A DNA stretch of 63,674 nt, the filler included, from Stramenopiles sp. TOSAG23-3 (taxonomy: Eukaryota): assembly GCA_900128585.1 (NCBI GenBank). It is 8 parts of 8 records of this genome, joined end to end, with 100 filler letters (N's around TTAATTAATTAA, not from the genome) between each part and the next. Parts side by side here need not be neighbours in the genome. Positions count along the whole stretch, not along the records: positions 42,128 to 56,034 come from LT642601.1; 7 more parts are not named here. One strand, given 5' to 3'. Each line of letters opens with the position of its first letter. The stretch's first letter is position 1. A model generated the notes under the pieces. That model saw only the letters and a list, made by a program, of their open reading frames with translations, did no database searches and was not told where the DNA came from. Position numbers and translations under genes: made by a program. Positions 39,247-47,272 of the stretch are shown here, piece by piece.

Positions 39247-41238
39247 TTACTCCGATAGTTGCGGATCAGTGGTATCCGAGAAGAATTTAATGAACCGTTT
39301 CGCGTATTCCAACGGCGGAACGCTGGATATTTTCCCCTTCCCCTGACCCGCGATATACGTTTTAAATATATTCTCCCCCCGTTTGATCAAGTTGTACTGT
39401 TGCAGGATATCAATGATGCCAAAGTAATAGATTTCATTGTTGTTCTCCCCAGAGGGGGTCTTTCCTTGGTAGCCGCCAGACTCCTGGTTAAAAATGGGCA
39501 ATCGCTGGTGGCACTCTGGTTCCCGAATGATTTCAGACTCCTCCAGCTCGTCCGCGGTCAAGTTGTACGATTCCTCCAAGCCGTCAGACATCATGCTCTC
39601 GTCGCCGCTCGAAGCTTTTCCGTCGCTCATTTCACCGCCGCTGGTGTTCCCACTGGTGGAGCTTCCGCGGCTGCTTTTTCTAGGGGGTTTCTTGCCTACA
39701 CCATAGCCTGGAATCTTCTCTGGGACGCGCCCGTGGATGCCCACCAGCAGGCTGTAGTCCATGATACCCATCTTAGACAGGAACAGGGAATCGACGCGGA
39801 TCTGATCGATGAACTTTTTCCGCCGCTCCGGGGTCCCTAATTTGATCCTTTGCGCCAAGTTTTCGATGGGGCCACTCAGCGAGTCGTCGAAACCCAGGAA
39901 GTTAAGGTCTTTTCGCACCGACCCTGGCTTTTTCTTGATTTTTTCGTGCGACGTGTACCGCCCTTTGTACGTTGCGCCCTTTATGTCGTATTTGACGTGG
40001 ATGTCTTTCGGTGTGTTGAAAATGTTGTTCATGACGACAAAATGCAGACGGCGCCTGATGTGCGGCATTTTAACACGGTGAAGGCCGTAGTAACGGTTCA
40101 AAAGGCTATCGGGGTATTGGCCCATGTGCTCGACAAAGTATGGGAGGATCCTCCGCAAAAATTTACACTCCTGGTCGGTCAACGTTTTGATCATGTATTT
40201 CATATCGTTGGAGAAAAAGAAGTACTGCCCGCTCTTCGAATTCGATAAAAATTTAATAAACCCCAAGTTCCCACAAATGCTCAGCAAGTACTCTGCCGGG
40301 TCCACTTTCCAAAGGTTGCGCAAGTGCCGGAAGCACAGCGGCGCGTAGTCTTTGAACTTAAAGCTCACCCCTTTCTTCACCGCGGTCCCAGCGGACATGC
40401 TCGGGGAGAGGGGGAATATGTACTTCTCTACTGCCATGAAGTCTTTCATCGTAAGGCGGCGGGAGAGGCTGTTCAAGTTGATCACCCGGCTGGAGTGGGA
40501 GCTTAGGGCGGAAATGCCGTCCGCCCCGACGGAGTCGCTGTCCACGCTAGTCGTAGAGTCCTTCCTCGCCGCCGCCGTCGGCGGGTAGGCTTCGCTAAAC
40601 TGACGGCCGACGCTCACCTGCACCCCGATCATCATCCCGTACGTGAGTGCGTACATTTCATCCTCCTTTCCTATGACATCTTTGGTCCGCACCTCTTTCC
40701 CTTTCTTCTCCCGGCGGTCTCTGCGCAACGCTTTCTTTTTCTGGCTCTTCAACTCTTCCTTCTCCGTCTTCAGCCGCGCTTTGTATTTTCGCGTTATCAA
40801 GCGGCGGCGGCGCCTCCCTTTGTCCTTCTCAAACCCGGCATCGATCGTCAAGTTCACAGCTTTCGCGAAGGGGGTATCTACCTCTGGCATGTAATGCCCG
40901 GGCTCCGTCGCCACCATCGTGTTTGGGCTTTTCATCATCGGCTGCAGCGAGCCCCGGCGGAGCTTTACGAGGTTCTTGATATCGCGCTTCGAGGGGGTGG
41001 GGGAAACGGGGGCGGGGGAAATCTCCCCAAAACCGTCGAAATTCGACGTGCTTGGCGGCATAGACTGTCTTCTACTAGAACGAGGGCTGGGACCCGAACT
41101 CTCCAGCAGCATCGCAAACTTCTCCGCGTTACCAAGGGGAGACTGCCGCCCCGACGGGGAACTGCCCTGGCCACCGCCCGTACCGGACGCGCCCGGAACC
41201 GGAACCTTCGGGGCATCGTCCTCTATTGCGGACGCCAT
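39247..41238 (-). CDS. Phosphatidylinositol-4-phosphate 5-kinase
   Basis: FKFKDYAP, KSGQYFF, YMIKT, YDIKG, KDLN, IMDYSLL, FGIIDILQ. Confidence 0.95.
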   Translation of the reverse strand: MASAIEDDAPKVPVPGASGTGGGQGSSPSGRQSPLGNAEKFAMLLESSGPSPRSSRRQSMPPSTSNFDGFGEISPAPVSPTPSKRDIKNLVKLRRGSLQPMMKSPNTMVATEPGHYMPEVDTPFAKAVNLTIDAGFEKDKGRRRRRLITRKYKARLKTEKEELKSQKKKALRRDRREKKGKEVRTKDVIGKEDEMYALTYGMMIGVQVSVGRQFSEAYPPTAAARKDSTTSVDSDSVGADGISALSSHSSRVINLNSLSRRLTMKDFMAVEKYIFPLSPSMSAGTAVKKGVSFKFKDYAPLCFRHLRNLWKVDPAEYLLSICGNLGFIKFLSNSKSGQYFFFSNDMKYMIKTLTDQECKFLRRILPYFVEHMGQYPDSLLNRYYGLHRVKMPHIRRRLHFVVMNNIFNTPKDIHVKYDIKGATYKGRYTSHEKIKKKPGSVRKDLNFLGFDDSLSGPIENLAQRIKLGTPERRKKFIDQIRVDSLFLSKMGIMDYSLLVGIHGRVPEKIPGYGVGKKPPRKSSRGSSTSGNTSGGEMSDGKASSGDESMMSDGLEESYNLTADELEESEIIREPECHQRLPIFNQESGGYQGKTPSGENNNEIYYFGIIDILQQYNLIKRGENIFKTYIAGQGKGKISSVPPLEYAKRFIKFFSDTTDPQLSE

Positions 41239-42027: not shown

Positions 42028-42573
42028 NNNNNNNNNNNNNNNNNNNNNNNNNNNNNNNNNNNNNNNNNNNNTTAATTAATTAANNNNNNNNNNNNNNNNN
42101 NNNNNNNNNNNNNNNNNNNNNNNNNNNAAGAAGATAATAGAATAATAAAATACATAATAATACCAGATAATTTAATATAGAAGAAGGAAGAAAAAAAAAG
42201 AACGAAGAACTCTAAAATAAAGAAAAGGCCACGACGTCCTCAGCAGCAGCATTTTTAGTTTTTTTCTTTTGCTCTCTGCTGCTCTCTCCTCCTCCTCCCC
42301 CTCCCTACAAAAAAAAAAAAGGTGATGATGATGAAGAAAAGAGAGAAGAAAACAACTGGGAAGAAGAAGAGGAGGAGGGGCGGGCAGGTATAATACTATC
42401 AACAAAACGAATAAAATGCACATTTGATCAAAGTGTTAAAGTGTTGGAGAATTTTCTCTGTTTATCTATGCTGTGCAACAAACGGGTTTCTTTTTATAAA
42501 CAGCATTGGAAAGTTATAGACTTCCCCTTCCTTTAGTAGTTTAGAGGCCTTAGTTAAAAATCCGAATAACAAG

Positions 42574-43068: not shown

Positions 43069-45051
43069 TTATTTTTGAACCACCGTCGTCCAGCAGTTTG
43101 GCAGGCTGTGTGGATTCGCCCAAAGCTCCAGCAAGCGCCACCGGTCACTGATGTTACCTTCGCTGTCTAGGCGTGCTTGAGGCAACATCCGTTCCACCAA
43201 CTTTCTCAAAAAAGTCTCCGGTTTTGTCTCTGTTGGAAGCCGGTCGTTGACGTAAGGGTCGTGGGGGTCCTGCACATAATCGAAGACGACGTCCTCGGTG
43301 CGCTGGTGCCGAAGTTCGAGCTTGTCGTGGTAATGTTTTCCGCTTGGGGAAAGATGACCTCGTCGAAATATTAATAGGGTTTCGTGCACAGCACTAAAAT
43401 ACGGGCTTTCTCCGTGCACAAAAGTGTTGTCCGTGGACTGCTTTACCCAACTTAAATTTTCTACGTAGTAAAGATCGTGAACTTCTAAGGCCTTGATCAC
43501 CCGACCAATGTATTCTTTTCGAACCCAGATAAAGACTATCCCCGTTGGCATGACTTTTCTGCTCAGGTTCAAATTCTTCAAGTCTTCCGGGAGAACTAGG
43601 TTCGAGTCCGAGGGATTTTCTGCGCCCGTAGAATCCGTCGGTTCTGGGCCATATCGCCACGGCGGGTCCATCGTTATGCCCAAATAATTAAACTCTGGGT
43701 CGTCTTTCAGGGGTTTCAAGTTTTCCAACTCAAATTTTGCCACGTTGGGGACATTGTAGCAGTAAGATTCTTTTGACCCGTCTTCGGTCCTTGCATACCT
43801 TAATGCGCGTGGGATATACGGCTGTATTGGTTTTGCCCATGACGCAGGGCACCCGGGATCATCCGGGTATTTTCGGTCTGCAAGCTTTAGGAACGGAATC
43901 TTGTTGTAGACCACAGCTTTCGGGTCTGCCCTCCTGCGCACGCGCTTCAACGCCGTGATGAAATGGCCACTGGCATCGCTTACGAATGCAATGTTCGTAG
44001 TGCCGTAGCCACGACCTAACTCGCCCGGCAGGCGAGCGTCCCCGATAACCCCTCGCCGACGGTTTCTTTTTTCTCGCCGTTCCCGGCGATTCCGGATTTT
44101 CTTCTCCCTCTTCCGTCGCTTCTTGTTGCGCTTCTTGCCGTGGTACATGTCGTCCCAGAACGCATCTTCGTCGACGTCCCCGGACCAAAAATACTGCCCC
44201 TCGTCTTCTTGGTGCAGTTCCAACAATTCCGCGGCATTTTCCCAGCCAAGGTTCTGTTGGCTCACCCCCGAGAAAAATGCCATATCGTCCGCATCGTTGG
44301 CTCTGGTAGCTGATTCTACCGTGAAGGCGGATGTCCGTCGGAAAATCTCTTCTAACTGAGCTTCCGATACGTTAGTATCGCCATTGACATCGGTAGAACT
44401 GTCGCCTTCCTTGTTGGTACTGGCGGCAGCGTTCATATTTTGTACCTCCTCCATCATTTGAAACTTTTTCATGATCATGTCCACAGTCTCCCCTTCCTCT
44501 ACGTACCCAACGTAGTGCGACGTGGACGGCGCTGACACTCTGTCGCTTGGAACTCCCATATACGCGTTCAGGTTGTTCAGAGCCTTGCGAGCCGCCGACC
44601 GTCTTGGGCGCTTCTCTCTCTTTGGGACAACGCTCGCCGGCTTTGCTTTTTGTGTTTTTTTTCGCTTCTTGGTCTCTTTCGTTGGTTTTTTTCCCTCCTT
44701 GGCTTCGATTGGGTCGTTTCCTGGCTTTTCTGGTTCCAACGAGGCTCCTACCGAGACGGCGGAACTAACTTCTTGACTCTCCACGGTTCTGTTTGACGTG
44801 CCAGACTCCGGCGCAGGCGCAGTAACCTCGGCTTCGGGAGCTTTCTTATCTACAGATGACTTCGTGCTGGATGCCCCGCTTTGCTGTTGCTGCTGGCGCA
44901 TTAGTGCGATCCCATACTTCGCTGGACGCTCCCCAATTTCACAGACCCTACATTTTGAAATGGACTTGGCATTTACGAAGGTGCACACCCCACAGCTCCA
45001 TGGTGGTAGGCTATCGTATGAAACGTCGTTTGATGAAGACACAGAAGGCAT
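43069..45051 (-). CDS. MT-A70 family adenine methyltransferase-like protein (probably MTA9/AMT6-7 clade) with N-terminal RanBP2-type zinc finger
   Basis: WSCGVCTFVN...CRVC zinc finger; ITMDPPW, GIVFIWV, YVENLSWVK, HETLLIFRR, ELRHQR, LLELWA; ATG at 45051. Confidence 0.82.
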   Translation of the reverse strand: MPSVSSSNDVSYDSLPPWSCGVCTFVNAKSISKCRVCEIGERPAKYGIALMRQQQQQSGASSTKSSVDKKAPEAEVTAPAPESGTSNRTVESQEVSSAVSVGASLEPEKPGNDPIEAKEGKKPTKETKKRKKTQKAKPASVVPKREKRPRRSAARKALNNLNAYMGVPSDRVSAPSTSHYVGYVEEGETVDMIMKKFQMMEEVQNMNAAASTNKEGDSSTDVNGDTNVSEAQLEEIFRRTSAFTVESATRANDADDMAFFSGVSQQNLGWENAAELLELHQEDEGQYFWSGDVDEDAFWDDMYHGKKRNKKRRKREKKIRNRRERREKRNRRRGVIGDARLPGELGRGYGTTNIAFVSDASGHFITALKRVRRRADPKAVVYNKIPFLKLADRKYPDDPGCPASWAKPIQPYIPRALRYARTEDGSKESYCYNVPNVAKFELENLKPLKDDPEFNYLGITMDPPWRYGPEPTDSTGAENPSDSNLVLPEDLKNLNLSRKVMPTGIVFIWVRKEYIGRVIKALEVHDLYYVENLSWVKQSTDNTFVHGESPYFSAVHETLLIFRRGHLSPSGKHYHDKLELRHQRTEDVVFDYVQDPHDPYVNDRLPTETKPETFLRKLVERMLPQARLDSEGNISDRWRLLELWANPHSLPNCWTTVVQK

Positions 45052-45845
45052 GGTGTGGATTACTTTGTGGTCATAAAGTAATAAAATTATTCTTCCGCTG
45101 CGTTCTATTGTTTTCATTCTTCCTCGTCCATTGCGCATGTATATATATTTCTAACCAATCGGACTCATCGTGGTCAAAGGGAGGGAATCAGACCATACAT
45201 ACCCGCCATAGCTTTTTGAAATCCTTCTTCTTCATTAAAACAATAAGAAGATAGGAAGAAGAAGAAGAAGAAGAAGAAGAAGGAAAAAAAAAGATACTAC
45301 CTCTCCCTTTTTTTCTTCTTGTCTTACATACAACATAGGAATAGTATCGCTAAAAAAGACAATAATAATAAATTAAAAAAATGATGAATGAAGAAGAAGA
45401 ATAAATGAAGAAGAAGAAAAAAATTACGAAAAACAAGAAGACAAGGAGGGTAGAGGGAGAGGGTAGGCGAATATTAAATAAAATTGTTTATAAAATGTAT
45501 AATAGTCTTCCATCTTCTTCTTCTCTTTTTTATTTTTTATTTATTATATGGATGGAATTGATACGCTGTGTCATTGTTTGTATTAGATTAATCGATATTT
45601 TTATTATGTTCTTCAGGAAAGGCGGGAATTTGTGTTTTTTATAGTTATTGTGTACATGCTATGCTGTCTTGCTGTTCTAAATTTTAGCTAATATTTTTTA
45701 AATTGTCATCAACTACGAGGACTTGGTAATACGAAGAAGTATAAATATGCTGTATTATAAAATAGGAAACAATGCTATTACATTATGTTATAGCTATATT
45801 TATAGGATGTCATAGTAACCCTAATCCTAACCATATATTCATGAA

Positions 45846-47272
45846 TCACTTGCCCTTGTTCAACTTCGCTAACTGTCTCTTCAGTTTACGAATTTCATTT
45901 GTTTCGATTTGTTTCGATGATTTGTTCGACACTTTCTTCACCCTTGATGCGTAATTTAAGCTGCTGATGGTTTCATCGCCGTTCGTTTCGTCTGCGGATA
46001 TGTTGACAAACATCAGTGTTTTCGCGTTTCCCCCCAAACTGTCACTCATTAACATGGTCAAAGGGTGGTTTCTGTACGGAATGTGCTTCGCGCTGGTGGT
46101 AAGCGCGGCAATTACGTCGCCGAGGGCGGTCAATGATTTGTTGATCGCAGTGCCCTCTTCCCGGGAAGTGCCAGACGTGCCGGATTTTCCAATCCGTTCC
46201 GATCCTGCCAAGTCCACCAGTGTTAGTTTGCCAACCGTGGTGATTTTGGTGTTTGTGTTCATGCAATCAATATTGAACGTCATCAAAAGGTGGCTTCGGC
46301 TACTTTCGGAGTTCATCAATGTCGCGGCAGTGTGCCTTTGCTTATGGCCCGTGCGCATCAACACTTCGACGTCTTCTGGCGAGTGCACCTCCTTGCACGT
46401 TAAATTTTGAACATACACGATTCCGCGAGGGTCTTTCTTGATGGCTAGCTTTGTTCGGGGAGAACTTCCTAACAGGAGGTCTTCTAAATGGTCCCTGTAG
46501 AGCTCGAGCATGCTGAAGCGCACTTGGATATCTATTTTGCCTTTCATTCTGGCCTGAATGTCAAACAGTTCAATGACAGATCGCGGTGCAACTCCATACA
46601 TAGTCGAGTCCACGTCCGCCTCCAAGCTCTTCGCTTTCGCTGCACTTCCCCAGCTGCCCTCTGGCCCCATCATCGTGAAGGTCTTTCCGCTACCGGTTTG
46701 CCCGTAGGCAAACAGGCAGACGTTGAAACCGTCTACTGCATTTTGAATCATAGGCCGCGCCTGCTCAAACACTTGCGCCTGGGTACAACCGGGTTGAAAG
46801 ACTGCATCAAACTCAAAGCTCTTCCTAATCACCCGGCTTACGCCCATTACCGACTCGTTCGTTCTCTTCACCCTAATAGTTTGGGGGTCGGGAAACACTA
46901 TGATGTTTTTGTGACCATCGCTTCCTAGCGGTCGTACACGGCAAAGGACTCGAATCGTCCGCTCTGCAAAAAAGTCTTCGCGCAGTTGCGTATTCTCAAC
47001 GTTAAACAGCTCCATCTTTTCCGCCATTAGACGAGATTCCTCTTCCAAGCGCTTTTGCCGTTGTTCCAAAATTGCCTTTTCCTTAAGCTCCTGCTGGGCC
47101 AGCTCTTCCTTCTTCTCCATGTCAACGGATGAAGTTGATGGTGCTGGTTACCAAAAGGGTTTTGCTGGCGTAGGGCCTGTTGGGGGAAACGGTTGTCGCC
47201 GTGTGAAGACTGCCCAAATGAACCCTGAGCCTCATATTTCTTGTTTGCCAGCTTAGTATTTCCACCACCCAT
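45846..47272 (-). CDS. Kinesin-14 (KCBP-like C-terminal motor); probable frame break near 47150 and missing neck
   Basis: IRVLCRVRP, AYGQTGSGKT, NSESSRSH, DLAGSER, HIPYRN, LGGNAKT; upstream ATG ORF MGGGNTK (47272) is in another frame. The uninterrupted ORF is 45846-47120. Confidence 0.85.

What the first reader, a model, noticed from the sequence alone, without database searches (positions are those of the whole stretch)
43069..45051. MTA9/AMT6-7-like MT-A70 protein retaining DPPW and fused to a RanBP2 zinc finger: hint of a 6mA DNA methylation system
Seen: RanBP2-type finger, a conserved-looking YVGYVEEGETVDMIMKKF block, a basic tract, and an MT-A70 domain with DPPW, YVENL and ELRHQR. From recall, the last two motifs fit MTA9/AMT6-7, the partner of AMT1 in the complex that writes symmetric ApT 6mA in ciliates, rather than METTL3/14/4. 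Ciliate MTA9 is considered non-catalytic, so DPPW plus an RNA/ubiquitin-binding-type finger could mean retained activity or chromatin-linked targeting.
Basis: partly seen in the sequence, partly recalled or inferred. Interest (0 to 1): 0.7.

Follow-up and report, generated by a model that had tools for sequence, protein, structure and literature searches.

The report
DNA 6mA partner with ubiquitin-type finger
This marine protist gene encodes the probably non-catalytic partner subunit of the known enzyme complex that methylates adenine in DNA, and in this lineage it carries an extra small zinc finger of the ubiquitin-binding type that may help aim the complex at chromatin.

Summary
The motifs are all there, in one stop-free 660-residue ORF (minus strand, 43069-45051). 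It is an AMT6/7 (MTA9) protein: the best solved relatives are ciliate MTA9/AMT7 (E 1e-15), and no METTL3/14/4 chain matches by sequence. The same genome holds an AMT1 with intact catalytic residues and p2; p1 was not found. DPPW is not special: 37 of 155 relatives have it, and close relatives have NPSW or TPPW. About half of the SAM pocket is replaced, including the equivalent of the essential N360, while the DNA-binding RHQR motif is kept in 159 of 174. So retained catalysis is unlikely. The new element is the finger. It has the full NZF ubiquitin-binding signature (TF plus a hydrophobic residue), occurs in four lineages of one clade that includes a MAST-4-labelled protein, is missing from one sister locus, and persists where DPPW has decayed. 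Best reading: a non-catalytic, DNA-gripping AMT1 partner with a lineage-specific recruiting finger. Ubiquitin binding and 6mA itself are not shown. The scan earlier noted a Naegleria AMT6/7 with DPPY.

The parts
43069..45051 (-). Gene for an AMT6/7 (MTA9)-type MT-A70 protein, 660 aa, no intron needed (upstream in-frame ATGs at 45117 and 45138 possible)
   Evidence: no joints in RNA contigs
44941..45000 (-). NZF-type (RanBP2 fold) zinc finger: W18, C20, C23, T24-F25, N27, C34, V36, C37, followed by a conserved GERPxxY
   Evidence: definition from PMC11372445 passages
44461..44514 (-). YVGYVEEGETVDMIMKKF block, N-terminal hallmark of non-ciliate AMT6/7 proteins; function unknown
   Evidence: 76 of 95 long relatives, 0 of 120 AMT1
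44317..44355 (-). Second family block LEEIFRRTSAFTV
   Evidence: (consensus)
44050..44136 (-). Lys/Arg-rich tract, probable nuclear localisation or DNA contact (inference)
   Evidence: sequence
43072..43764 (-). MT-A70 (methyltransferase-fold) domain, about residues 430-660
   Evidence: (pLDDT 88.6 for residues 400-660)
43657..43668 (-). DPPW motif (D462-W465), aligned with MTA1 D209-W212
43300..43317 (-). ELRHQR; R581 and R584 correspond to AMT7 R379 and R382, DNA-binding residues needed for activity of the complex
   Evidence: alignment; passages of 10.1101/2025.04.24.650485; RHQR in 159 of 174
43072..43128 (-). Degenerate C-terminal half of the SAM pocket: ELWANPHS and VVQK in place of MTA1 EIFARRNN and GNEL
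   Evidence: structural register K660 = MTA1 E371; residue roles

Best explanation
The protein is this organism's AMT6/7 (MTA9) subunit of the AMT1/MTA1c DNA N6-adenine methyltransferase. Steps: (1) its MT-A70 domain pairs with the catalytic AMT1 encoded elsewhere in the genome (family membership and presence of AMT1 and p2 shown; pairing inferred from ciliates and fungi; about 90%). (2) It grips DNA through the RHQR arginines but does not itself transfer methyl groups; DPPW is a remnant kept by many AMT6/7 proteins, probably for structural reasons (residue pattern shown, inactivity inferred; about 85%). (3) The complex writes or maintains symmetric ApT 6mA downstream of transcription starts (inferred from other AMT1-bearing species; not tested; about 85%). 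(4) The N-terminal NZF finger, on a long low-complexity tether, binds ubiquitin through T24-F25-V36 (signature shown, binding inferred; about 60%). It would then recruit the complex to ubiquitinated chromatin or replication proteins, the kind of job done by the PIP box of ciliate AMT6 and the IBD2 contact of AMT7 (inferred; about 30%). The confidence given is for steps 1-3 plus an accessory NZF of probable ubiquitin-binding type.
For: PDB sequence search: MTA9/AMT7 E 1.3e-15, MTA9-B 3e-13, MTA1 6e-5, no METTL3/14/4 among 20 hits at E<=1. Foldseek ranks 1-6 are MTA9/AMT7/MTA9-B chains. The tree separates 142 AMT6/7-like rows, including NALW/NVKW ciliate-type rows, from 10 AMT1 rows (SH-aLRT 100). 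AMT1 on contig C3685: E 4e-86 to MTA1, all 14 checked motif and SAM-pocket positions intact. p2 on C6002: best hit AMTP2, E 7.9e-8. MTA1 R357/N359/N360/N370/E371 are N/H/S/Q/K here; N360A abolishes MTA1 activity and SAM binding (PMC9174199). These positions are 118-120 of 120 invariant in AMT1 and free in AMT6/7. The motif column is variable while RHQR is nearly fixed. All NZF-defining residues are present and invariant across P0001, P0003 and P0154, whose motifs are DPPW, NPSW and TPPW. AMT6/7 are the recruiting subunits in Tetrahymena (PMC11761967).
Against: Part of the SAM pocket survives: N436 (D182 position; N in 47 of 120 AMT1), D462, K610, E642. By pure geometry the model is closest to catalytic MTA1 chains (Z 19.5), which outrank the MTA9 chains of the same entries. 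p1, the main DNA-binding subunit, was not found in 6 genome searches or a seventh; the assembly is fragmented (7088 contigs). AMT1 and p2 lie on other contigs of an assembly of unknown purity. The finger is absent from the L012 locus of the same clade, so it is dispensable. Ran-binding fingers of Nup153/RanBP2 also match it (E 0.001-0.011). The tree has no METTL3/14/4 rows. The AMT1 set is the best 120 of 820 hits and so biased towards conservation.
Confidence: 0.75

Rival explanations
1. The subunit keeps a working second active site, so the AMT1-AMT6/7 dimer has two catalytic domains, or this protein methylates a different substrate.
For: Exact DPPW; N436, K610 and E642 match MTA1 SAM contacts; D at the motif's first place in 57 of 94 aligned relatives; model geometry closest to MTA1. 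Inactivity in the passages I read was tested only on ciliate MTA9, whose motif is eroded.
Against: N360, R357, N359, N370 and E371 equivalents lost, with a charge reversal at E371. 0 of 37 DPPW-bearing relatives have the R[RK]xN loop or terminal GN[EQ] (in 8 the loop was not located, some being truncated). Nearest relatives tolerate NPSW, TPPW and SPPW.
Confidence: 0.1
2. The core is as in the best explanation, but the finger does not target the complex through ubiquitin: it binds Ran, RNA or another protein, controls turnover of the subunit, or is a dispensable accretion.
For: Nup153 and RanBP2 fingers match at E 0.001-0.011; finger absent in L012, P0004 and P0005; other AMT6/7-like proteins carry unrelated N-terminal add-ons such as FYRN/FYRC and Myb; isolated NZF affinities are weak, about 100-350 uM for several.
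Against: The TF motif and V36 are invariant in all four finger-bearing lineages, over a span where whole-protein identity falls to 41%; the top five PDB matches are ubiquitin-binding NZFs, and no ZRANB2-type chain is among the 24 hits.
Confidence: 0.4
3. It is an RNA m6A or METTL4-type enzyme unrelated to DNA 6mA.
For: METTL3 chains are close in fold (Z 17.7-19.1); some RanBP2-type fingers bind RNA (recalled).
Against: No METTL3/14/4 sequence match; AMT6/7 hallmarks YVGYV, YVENL and RHQR; AMT1 and p2 present; the genome search found only these two MT-A70 genes (2 of 2 candidates).
Confidence: 0.02

Closest known systems
Tetrahymena MTA9/AMT7 and MTA9-B/AMT6 (PDB 7yi8_A, 9o6k_A, 8xyl_B), pseudo-enzyme subunits of MTA1c
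   Same: MT-A70 fold, YVENL- and ELRHQR-type motifs, DNA-binding arginines R379/R382, degenerate C-terminal SAM pocket, AMT1 and p2 in the same genome
   Different: DPPW instead of NALW/NIKW; no large insertion in the domain; long N-terminus with YVGYV block and an NZF finger; no PIP-like motif found by my pattern; single copy found
Non-ciliate Mta9/AMT6-7 of early-diverging fungi, green algae, ichthyosporeans and labyrinthulomycetes (e.g. Mucorales Mta9, Ostreococcus, Creolimax CFRG2329, Hondaea)
   Same: YVGYV block, second N-terminal block, near-intact motif (DPPL, DPPF, NPPW, SPPW), RHQR, C-terminal ELWA...W
   Different: None of these carries the finger; by regular expression it was in 4 of 177 proteins scanned (P0001, its near-copy P0002, P0003, P0154), plus locus L016
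NZF ubiquitin-binding domains (TAB2/3, YAF2/RYBP, Npl4, TRABID, HOIP)
   Same: Trp, four Cys, Asn, TF motif, hydrophobic residue in the second CxxC, conserved residues after it
   Different: Sits on a DNA methyltransferase subunit; binding and target untested

Membership tests
AMT6/7 (MTA9) | MT-A70 domain | tested here: met
   Pfam PF05063 27.4 bits, cut-off 23.9; fold searches
AMT6/7 (MTA9) | Closer to MTA9/AMT6/AMT7 than to other MT-A70 clades | tested here: met
   Sequence E 1e-15 against 6e-5 for MTA1 and no METTL3/14/4 hit; Foldseek ranks 1-6; tree against AMT1 only. Geometry-only alignment prefers MTA1
AMT6/7 (MTA9) | DNA-binding arginines (AMT7 R379, R382) | tested here: met
   R581, R584 in RHQR
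AMT6/7 (MTA9) | Eroded catalytic motif, as described for ciliate members | tested here: not met
   DPPW intact; but erosion is not a family-wide trait: 79 of 155 relatives fit [DNSH]PP[YFW], so it does not define the clade
AMT6/7 (MTA9) | Co-occurs with AMT1 and p1/p2 | tested here: met
   AMT1 and p2 found; p1 not found, inconclusive in a fragmented assembly
AMT6/7 (MTA9) | Heterodimer with AMT1; no SAM binding | not tested
AMT1 / catalytic MT-A70 | DPPW motif | tested here: met
   D462-W465
AMT1 / catalytic MT-A70 | SAM residues R357, N359, N360, N370, E371 | tested here: not met
   N646, H648, S649, Q659, K660
NZF ubiquitin-binding finger | Trp, four Cys, Asn, TF motif, hydrophobic residue in second CxxC | tested here: met
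   W18, C20/23/34/37, N27, T24-F25, V36
NZF ubiquitin-binding finger | Binds the I44 patch of ubiquitin | not testable with these tools
   Needs a binding assay
MTA1c 6mA system | Symmetric ApT 6mA downstream of transcription starts | not testable with these tools
   No modification-aware long reads available

The most novel reading that the evidence does not exclude
In a clade of uncultured marine protists that includes MAST-4, the 6mA writer reads ubiquitin: the NZF on AMT6/7 docks the complex on ubiquitinated nucleosomes or ubiquitinated PCNA. That would be a ubiquitin-guided adenine methylation pathway convergent with the ubiquitin-guided recruitment of the 5mC enzymes DNMT1 and DNMT3A (that parallel is recalled, not looked up). 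It may also stand in for targeting done by p1 elsewhere, if p1 is truly missing.
Probability: 0.25. Interest if true: 0.75.

Novelty: new variant of a known kind. Interest (0 to 1): 0.4.

Why it matters
How the AMT1 complex is aimed at transcribed chromatin outside ciliates is open: H3K4me3 was dispensable in Acanthamoeba, and only ichthyosporean p1 has a PHD reader (PMC12695648). A ubiquitin-type reader built into the partner subunit gives one directly testable route. The survey also shows that the eroded motif of ciliate MTA9 is not typical of the family: many AMT6/7 keep DPPW-like motifs and lose the C-terminal SAM contacts instead, so DPPW alone should not be read as activity. It adds a MAST-4-like grazer lineage, absent from the 14 heterokonts in the published table, to the organisms expected to have 6mA. 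The core system is known and expected, which caps the interest.

Tried and rejected
Complex prediction of the finger (residues 12-50) with the genome's ubiquitin and zinc: no answer (score 0.12, mark 0.34, no controls run); not used as evidence. A Myb domain fused to a fungal AMT6/7-like protein (P0234) was followed as a p1 lead. It has three relatives in the genome, but no p1 or p2 chain appeared in sequence, profile or fold searches. Published p1/p2 sequences carry other motifs, and its motif occurs once in that file, in an Mta9 paralogue; rejected as p1. p1 searches in the genome: motif patterns gave 0 hits, 1 chance hit, 10 against 7 control hits, 18 against 7 with p2 recovered as positive control and one weak SANT-like hit, and 25 against 22; the p2 protein found only itself. 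None was p1; absence is not shown. ESM Atlas for the protein gave only sub-threshold MT-A70 clusters (0.84). No light-harvesting gene found (weak evidence for a heterotroph). No PIP-like motif in 5 of 5 clade members. ApT odds in the window are 0.90, like AC/AG, and uninformative. The published tree file was cut, so clade labels could not be read. The scan's notes had no look-alike by sequence. Literature searches for this architecture: 0 papers with 4 of MT-A70/NZF/RanBP2/zinc finger/6mA; 0 with 4 of AMT6/catalytically active/pseudoenzyme/unicellular eukaryotes/MTA9; none of 15 listed 6mA papers mentions MAST-4. A tree with METTL3/14/4 rows and a direct p1 query were not run because those sequences were not among the stored ones.

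Full report
Observation. Window 43069-45051 on the minus strand is one stop-free ORF of 660 residues between a PIP5K gene and a kinesin gene. It lies on contig C198 of the genome. Pfam finds MT-A70 above its cut-off and the RanBP2 finger only below it. The finger alone matches TAB3, TAB2 and YAF2 NZF domains at E 6e-5 to 8e-4. Contigs from RNA libraries of four studies cover the ORF in pieces without joints, one polyA library reaching over most of the finger. This is weak support for expression, and no contig joins finger and domain.

Family. Against solved structures the best sequence matches are Tetrahymena MTA9/AMT7 (E 1.3e-15) and MTA9-B (3e-13), then MTA1 (6e-5); no METTL3, METTL14 or METTL4 chain is among the 20 hits at E up to 1. 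A model of residues 400-660, built on 94 sequences that I chose from 177 for length (pLDDT 88.6), gives MTA9-type chains at Foldseek ranks 1-6. A geometry-only realignment ranks catalytic MTA1 chains first (Z 19.5), ahead of the MTA9 chains of the same entries. I read this as the lack of the ciliate insertion, but it counts against a strongly distorted pocket. A quick tree of 142 near-complete domains (of 174) and 10 AMT1 rows separates the two sets with SH-aLRT 100 and puts NALW- and NVKW-bearing rows, which I take to be ciliate MTA9 and AMT6 from motif and length, with the query. It has no METTL3/14/4 rows and only a midpoint root. Named relatives include Ostreococcus, early-diverging fungi, Creolimax and Hondaea. 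The cluster of the 59%-identical relative P0003 has a member labelled Stramenopile MAST-4, so the organism is probably MAST-4 or near it (inference).

The rest of the system. The MT-A70 search of the genome returned two genes, 2 of 2 candidates. The other is AMT1 (E 4e-86 to MTA1, 4e-33 to METTL3), with all 14 checked motif and SAM-pocket positions intact. Its three closest relatives (80-83%) mirror the three closest relatives of the query, which fits a shared history. A motif search found a 160-residue p2 on C6002, best match AMTP2 at E 7.9e-8. p1 was not found in seven searches, which proves nothing in 7088 contigs. AMT1 with AMT6/7 is already tabulated for labyrinthulomycetes and Blastocystis, and 6mA peaks are reported in Aurantiochytrium, so the system is expected in heterotrophic stramenopiles.

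Is DPPW a sign of activity? Of 174 relatives with a domain hit, 155 have letters at the four motif columns. DPPW is the commonest, then DPPL and NPPW; 79 fit the signature [DNSH]PP[YFW] (the set holds some near-duplicates). Published fungal Mta9 sequences show DPPL. The closest relatives have NPSW, DPPW, DPPW, SPPW and TPPW. MTA1 binds SAM with D182, D209, K334, E353, R357, N359, N360, N370 and E371, and D182, D209 and N360 are essential (PMC9174199; PMC9852454). The query keeps N436, D462, K610 and E642 but has N646, H648, S649, Q659 and K660 at the other five places; the structural alignment confirms K660 at E371. Those five places are invariant or nearly so in 118-120 of 120 AMT1 (the best 120 of 820 hits, so biased) and free in AMT6/7. 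None of the 37 DPPW-bearing members shows the AMT1 loop or terminal GNE (in 8 the loop was not located). What the family does keep is RHQR, 159 of 174, whose arginines are AMT7 R379 and R382, DNA contacts needed for activity of the complex. Selection is therefore on DNA binding, not on catalysis. Retained activity is not excluded (about 10%), since in the passages read inactivity was tested only on ciliate proteins.

The finger. NZF domains are defined by Trp, four Cys, Asn, a TF motif and a hydrophobic residue in the second CxxC (PMC11372445); all are present. The finger was found in 4 of 177 AMT6/7-like proteins and 0 of 120 AMT1: the query, its near-copy, P0003 and P0154, plus locus L016. 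These belong to one six-row clade (SH-aLRT 96). It is in 14 of 15 listed members of the P0154 cluster and 8 of 11 of the P0003 cluster, the exceptions being shorter records. It is absent from L012, a P0005-type gene with a stop seven codons before its start and no finger motif in any frame of the 7 kb locus. So the finger is probably ancestral to the clade, lost in one branch, and kept where the catalytic motif has decayed. In Tetrahymena AMT6 and AMT7 are the recruiting subunits, through a PIP box and an IBD2 contact (PMC11761967). No PIP-like motif was found here. Other AMT6/7-like proteins carry FYRN/FYRC or Myb add-ons. A ubiquitin-binding finger fits this pattern of lineage-specific targeting modules, but binding and target are inferred only, and Ran-binding fingers also match.

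Comparison and verdict. It works like, and is, an AMT6/7 subunit; it fails the AMT1 test on SAM residues. The finger fusion was not found in print, in a library that lacks most subscription journals. New variant of a known kind; interest 0.4.

What I saw of papers. Passages only: PMC7145601, 10.1101/2025.07.08.663716, PMC9174199, PMC11258239, PMC11372445, PMC9852454, PMC11761967, PMC12485025, 10.1101/2025.04.24.650485. PMC12695648: passages, supplementary text, table parts 1-2 of 3, tree file with the tree cut. PMC12019607: passages, supplement searches, parts 1 and 3 of 8 of the sequence file. Supplementary figures with MTA9 alignments and logos in these papers could not be seen and may already show the DPP-type motifs of non-ciliate members. 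Recalled, from no call: RNA binding by ZRANB2-type fingers, Ran binding by Nup153/RanBP2 fingers, ubiquitin-guided DNMT1/DNMT3A recruitment, and the ADA2 label for L036.

Noticed in passing
L009:653-2827 (-) (G000 C1422); L010:197-1972; L011:607-1818: Three proteins share an atypical Myb domain (NPNAYYYRF...RVGYQCS) also found in early-diverging fungi, chlorophytes and Reticulomyxa; L009 adds a weak U-box and a weak N-terminal GIP1_N match. The same domain is fused to a second Mta9 paralogue in Mucorales (P0234). It is not p1 or p2, but its range and the fusion hint at a link to the 6mA system.
   Followed up: partly
P0258, P0059, P0119: Other add-ons in the family: FYRN/FYRC on an AMT6/7-like protein with DPPW, a PHD finger on an AMT1, and zinc ribbons on another AMT1.
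   Followed up: no
P0160, P0208, P0027: AMT6/7-like domains joined to WD40, PTH2 or PARG domains in single records; probably gene-model fusions.
   Followed up: no
L004:1117-1344 (-), L005:1501-1728: The genome's ubiquitin copies read KEATLHL near residue 65, where Ser is usual (recalled); Ser65 is the PINK1 site in animals (recalled).
   Followed up: no
window 42072-42083 and other gaps: The window is a scaffold of several contigs; most gaps are two runs of 44 N around a 12-base linker (TTAATTAATTAA at this gap), an assembly artefact.
   Followed up: no
window 39247-41238 and 45846-47120: Neighbours are a PIP5K and a kinesin motor gene; no functional link seen.
   Followed up: partly
G000: No METTL3, METTL14 or METTL4 gene surfaced in the MT-A70 search and no light-harvesting gene; absence not shown in this assembly.
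   Followed up: no
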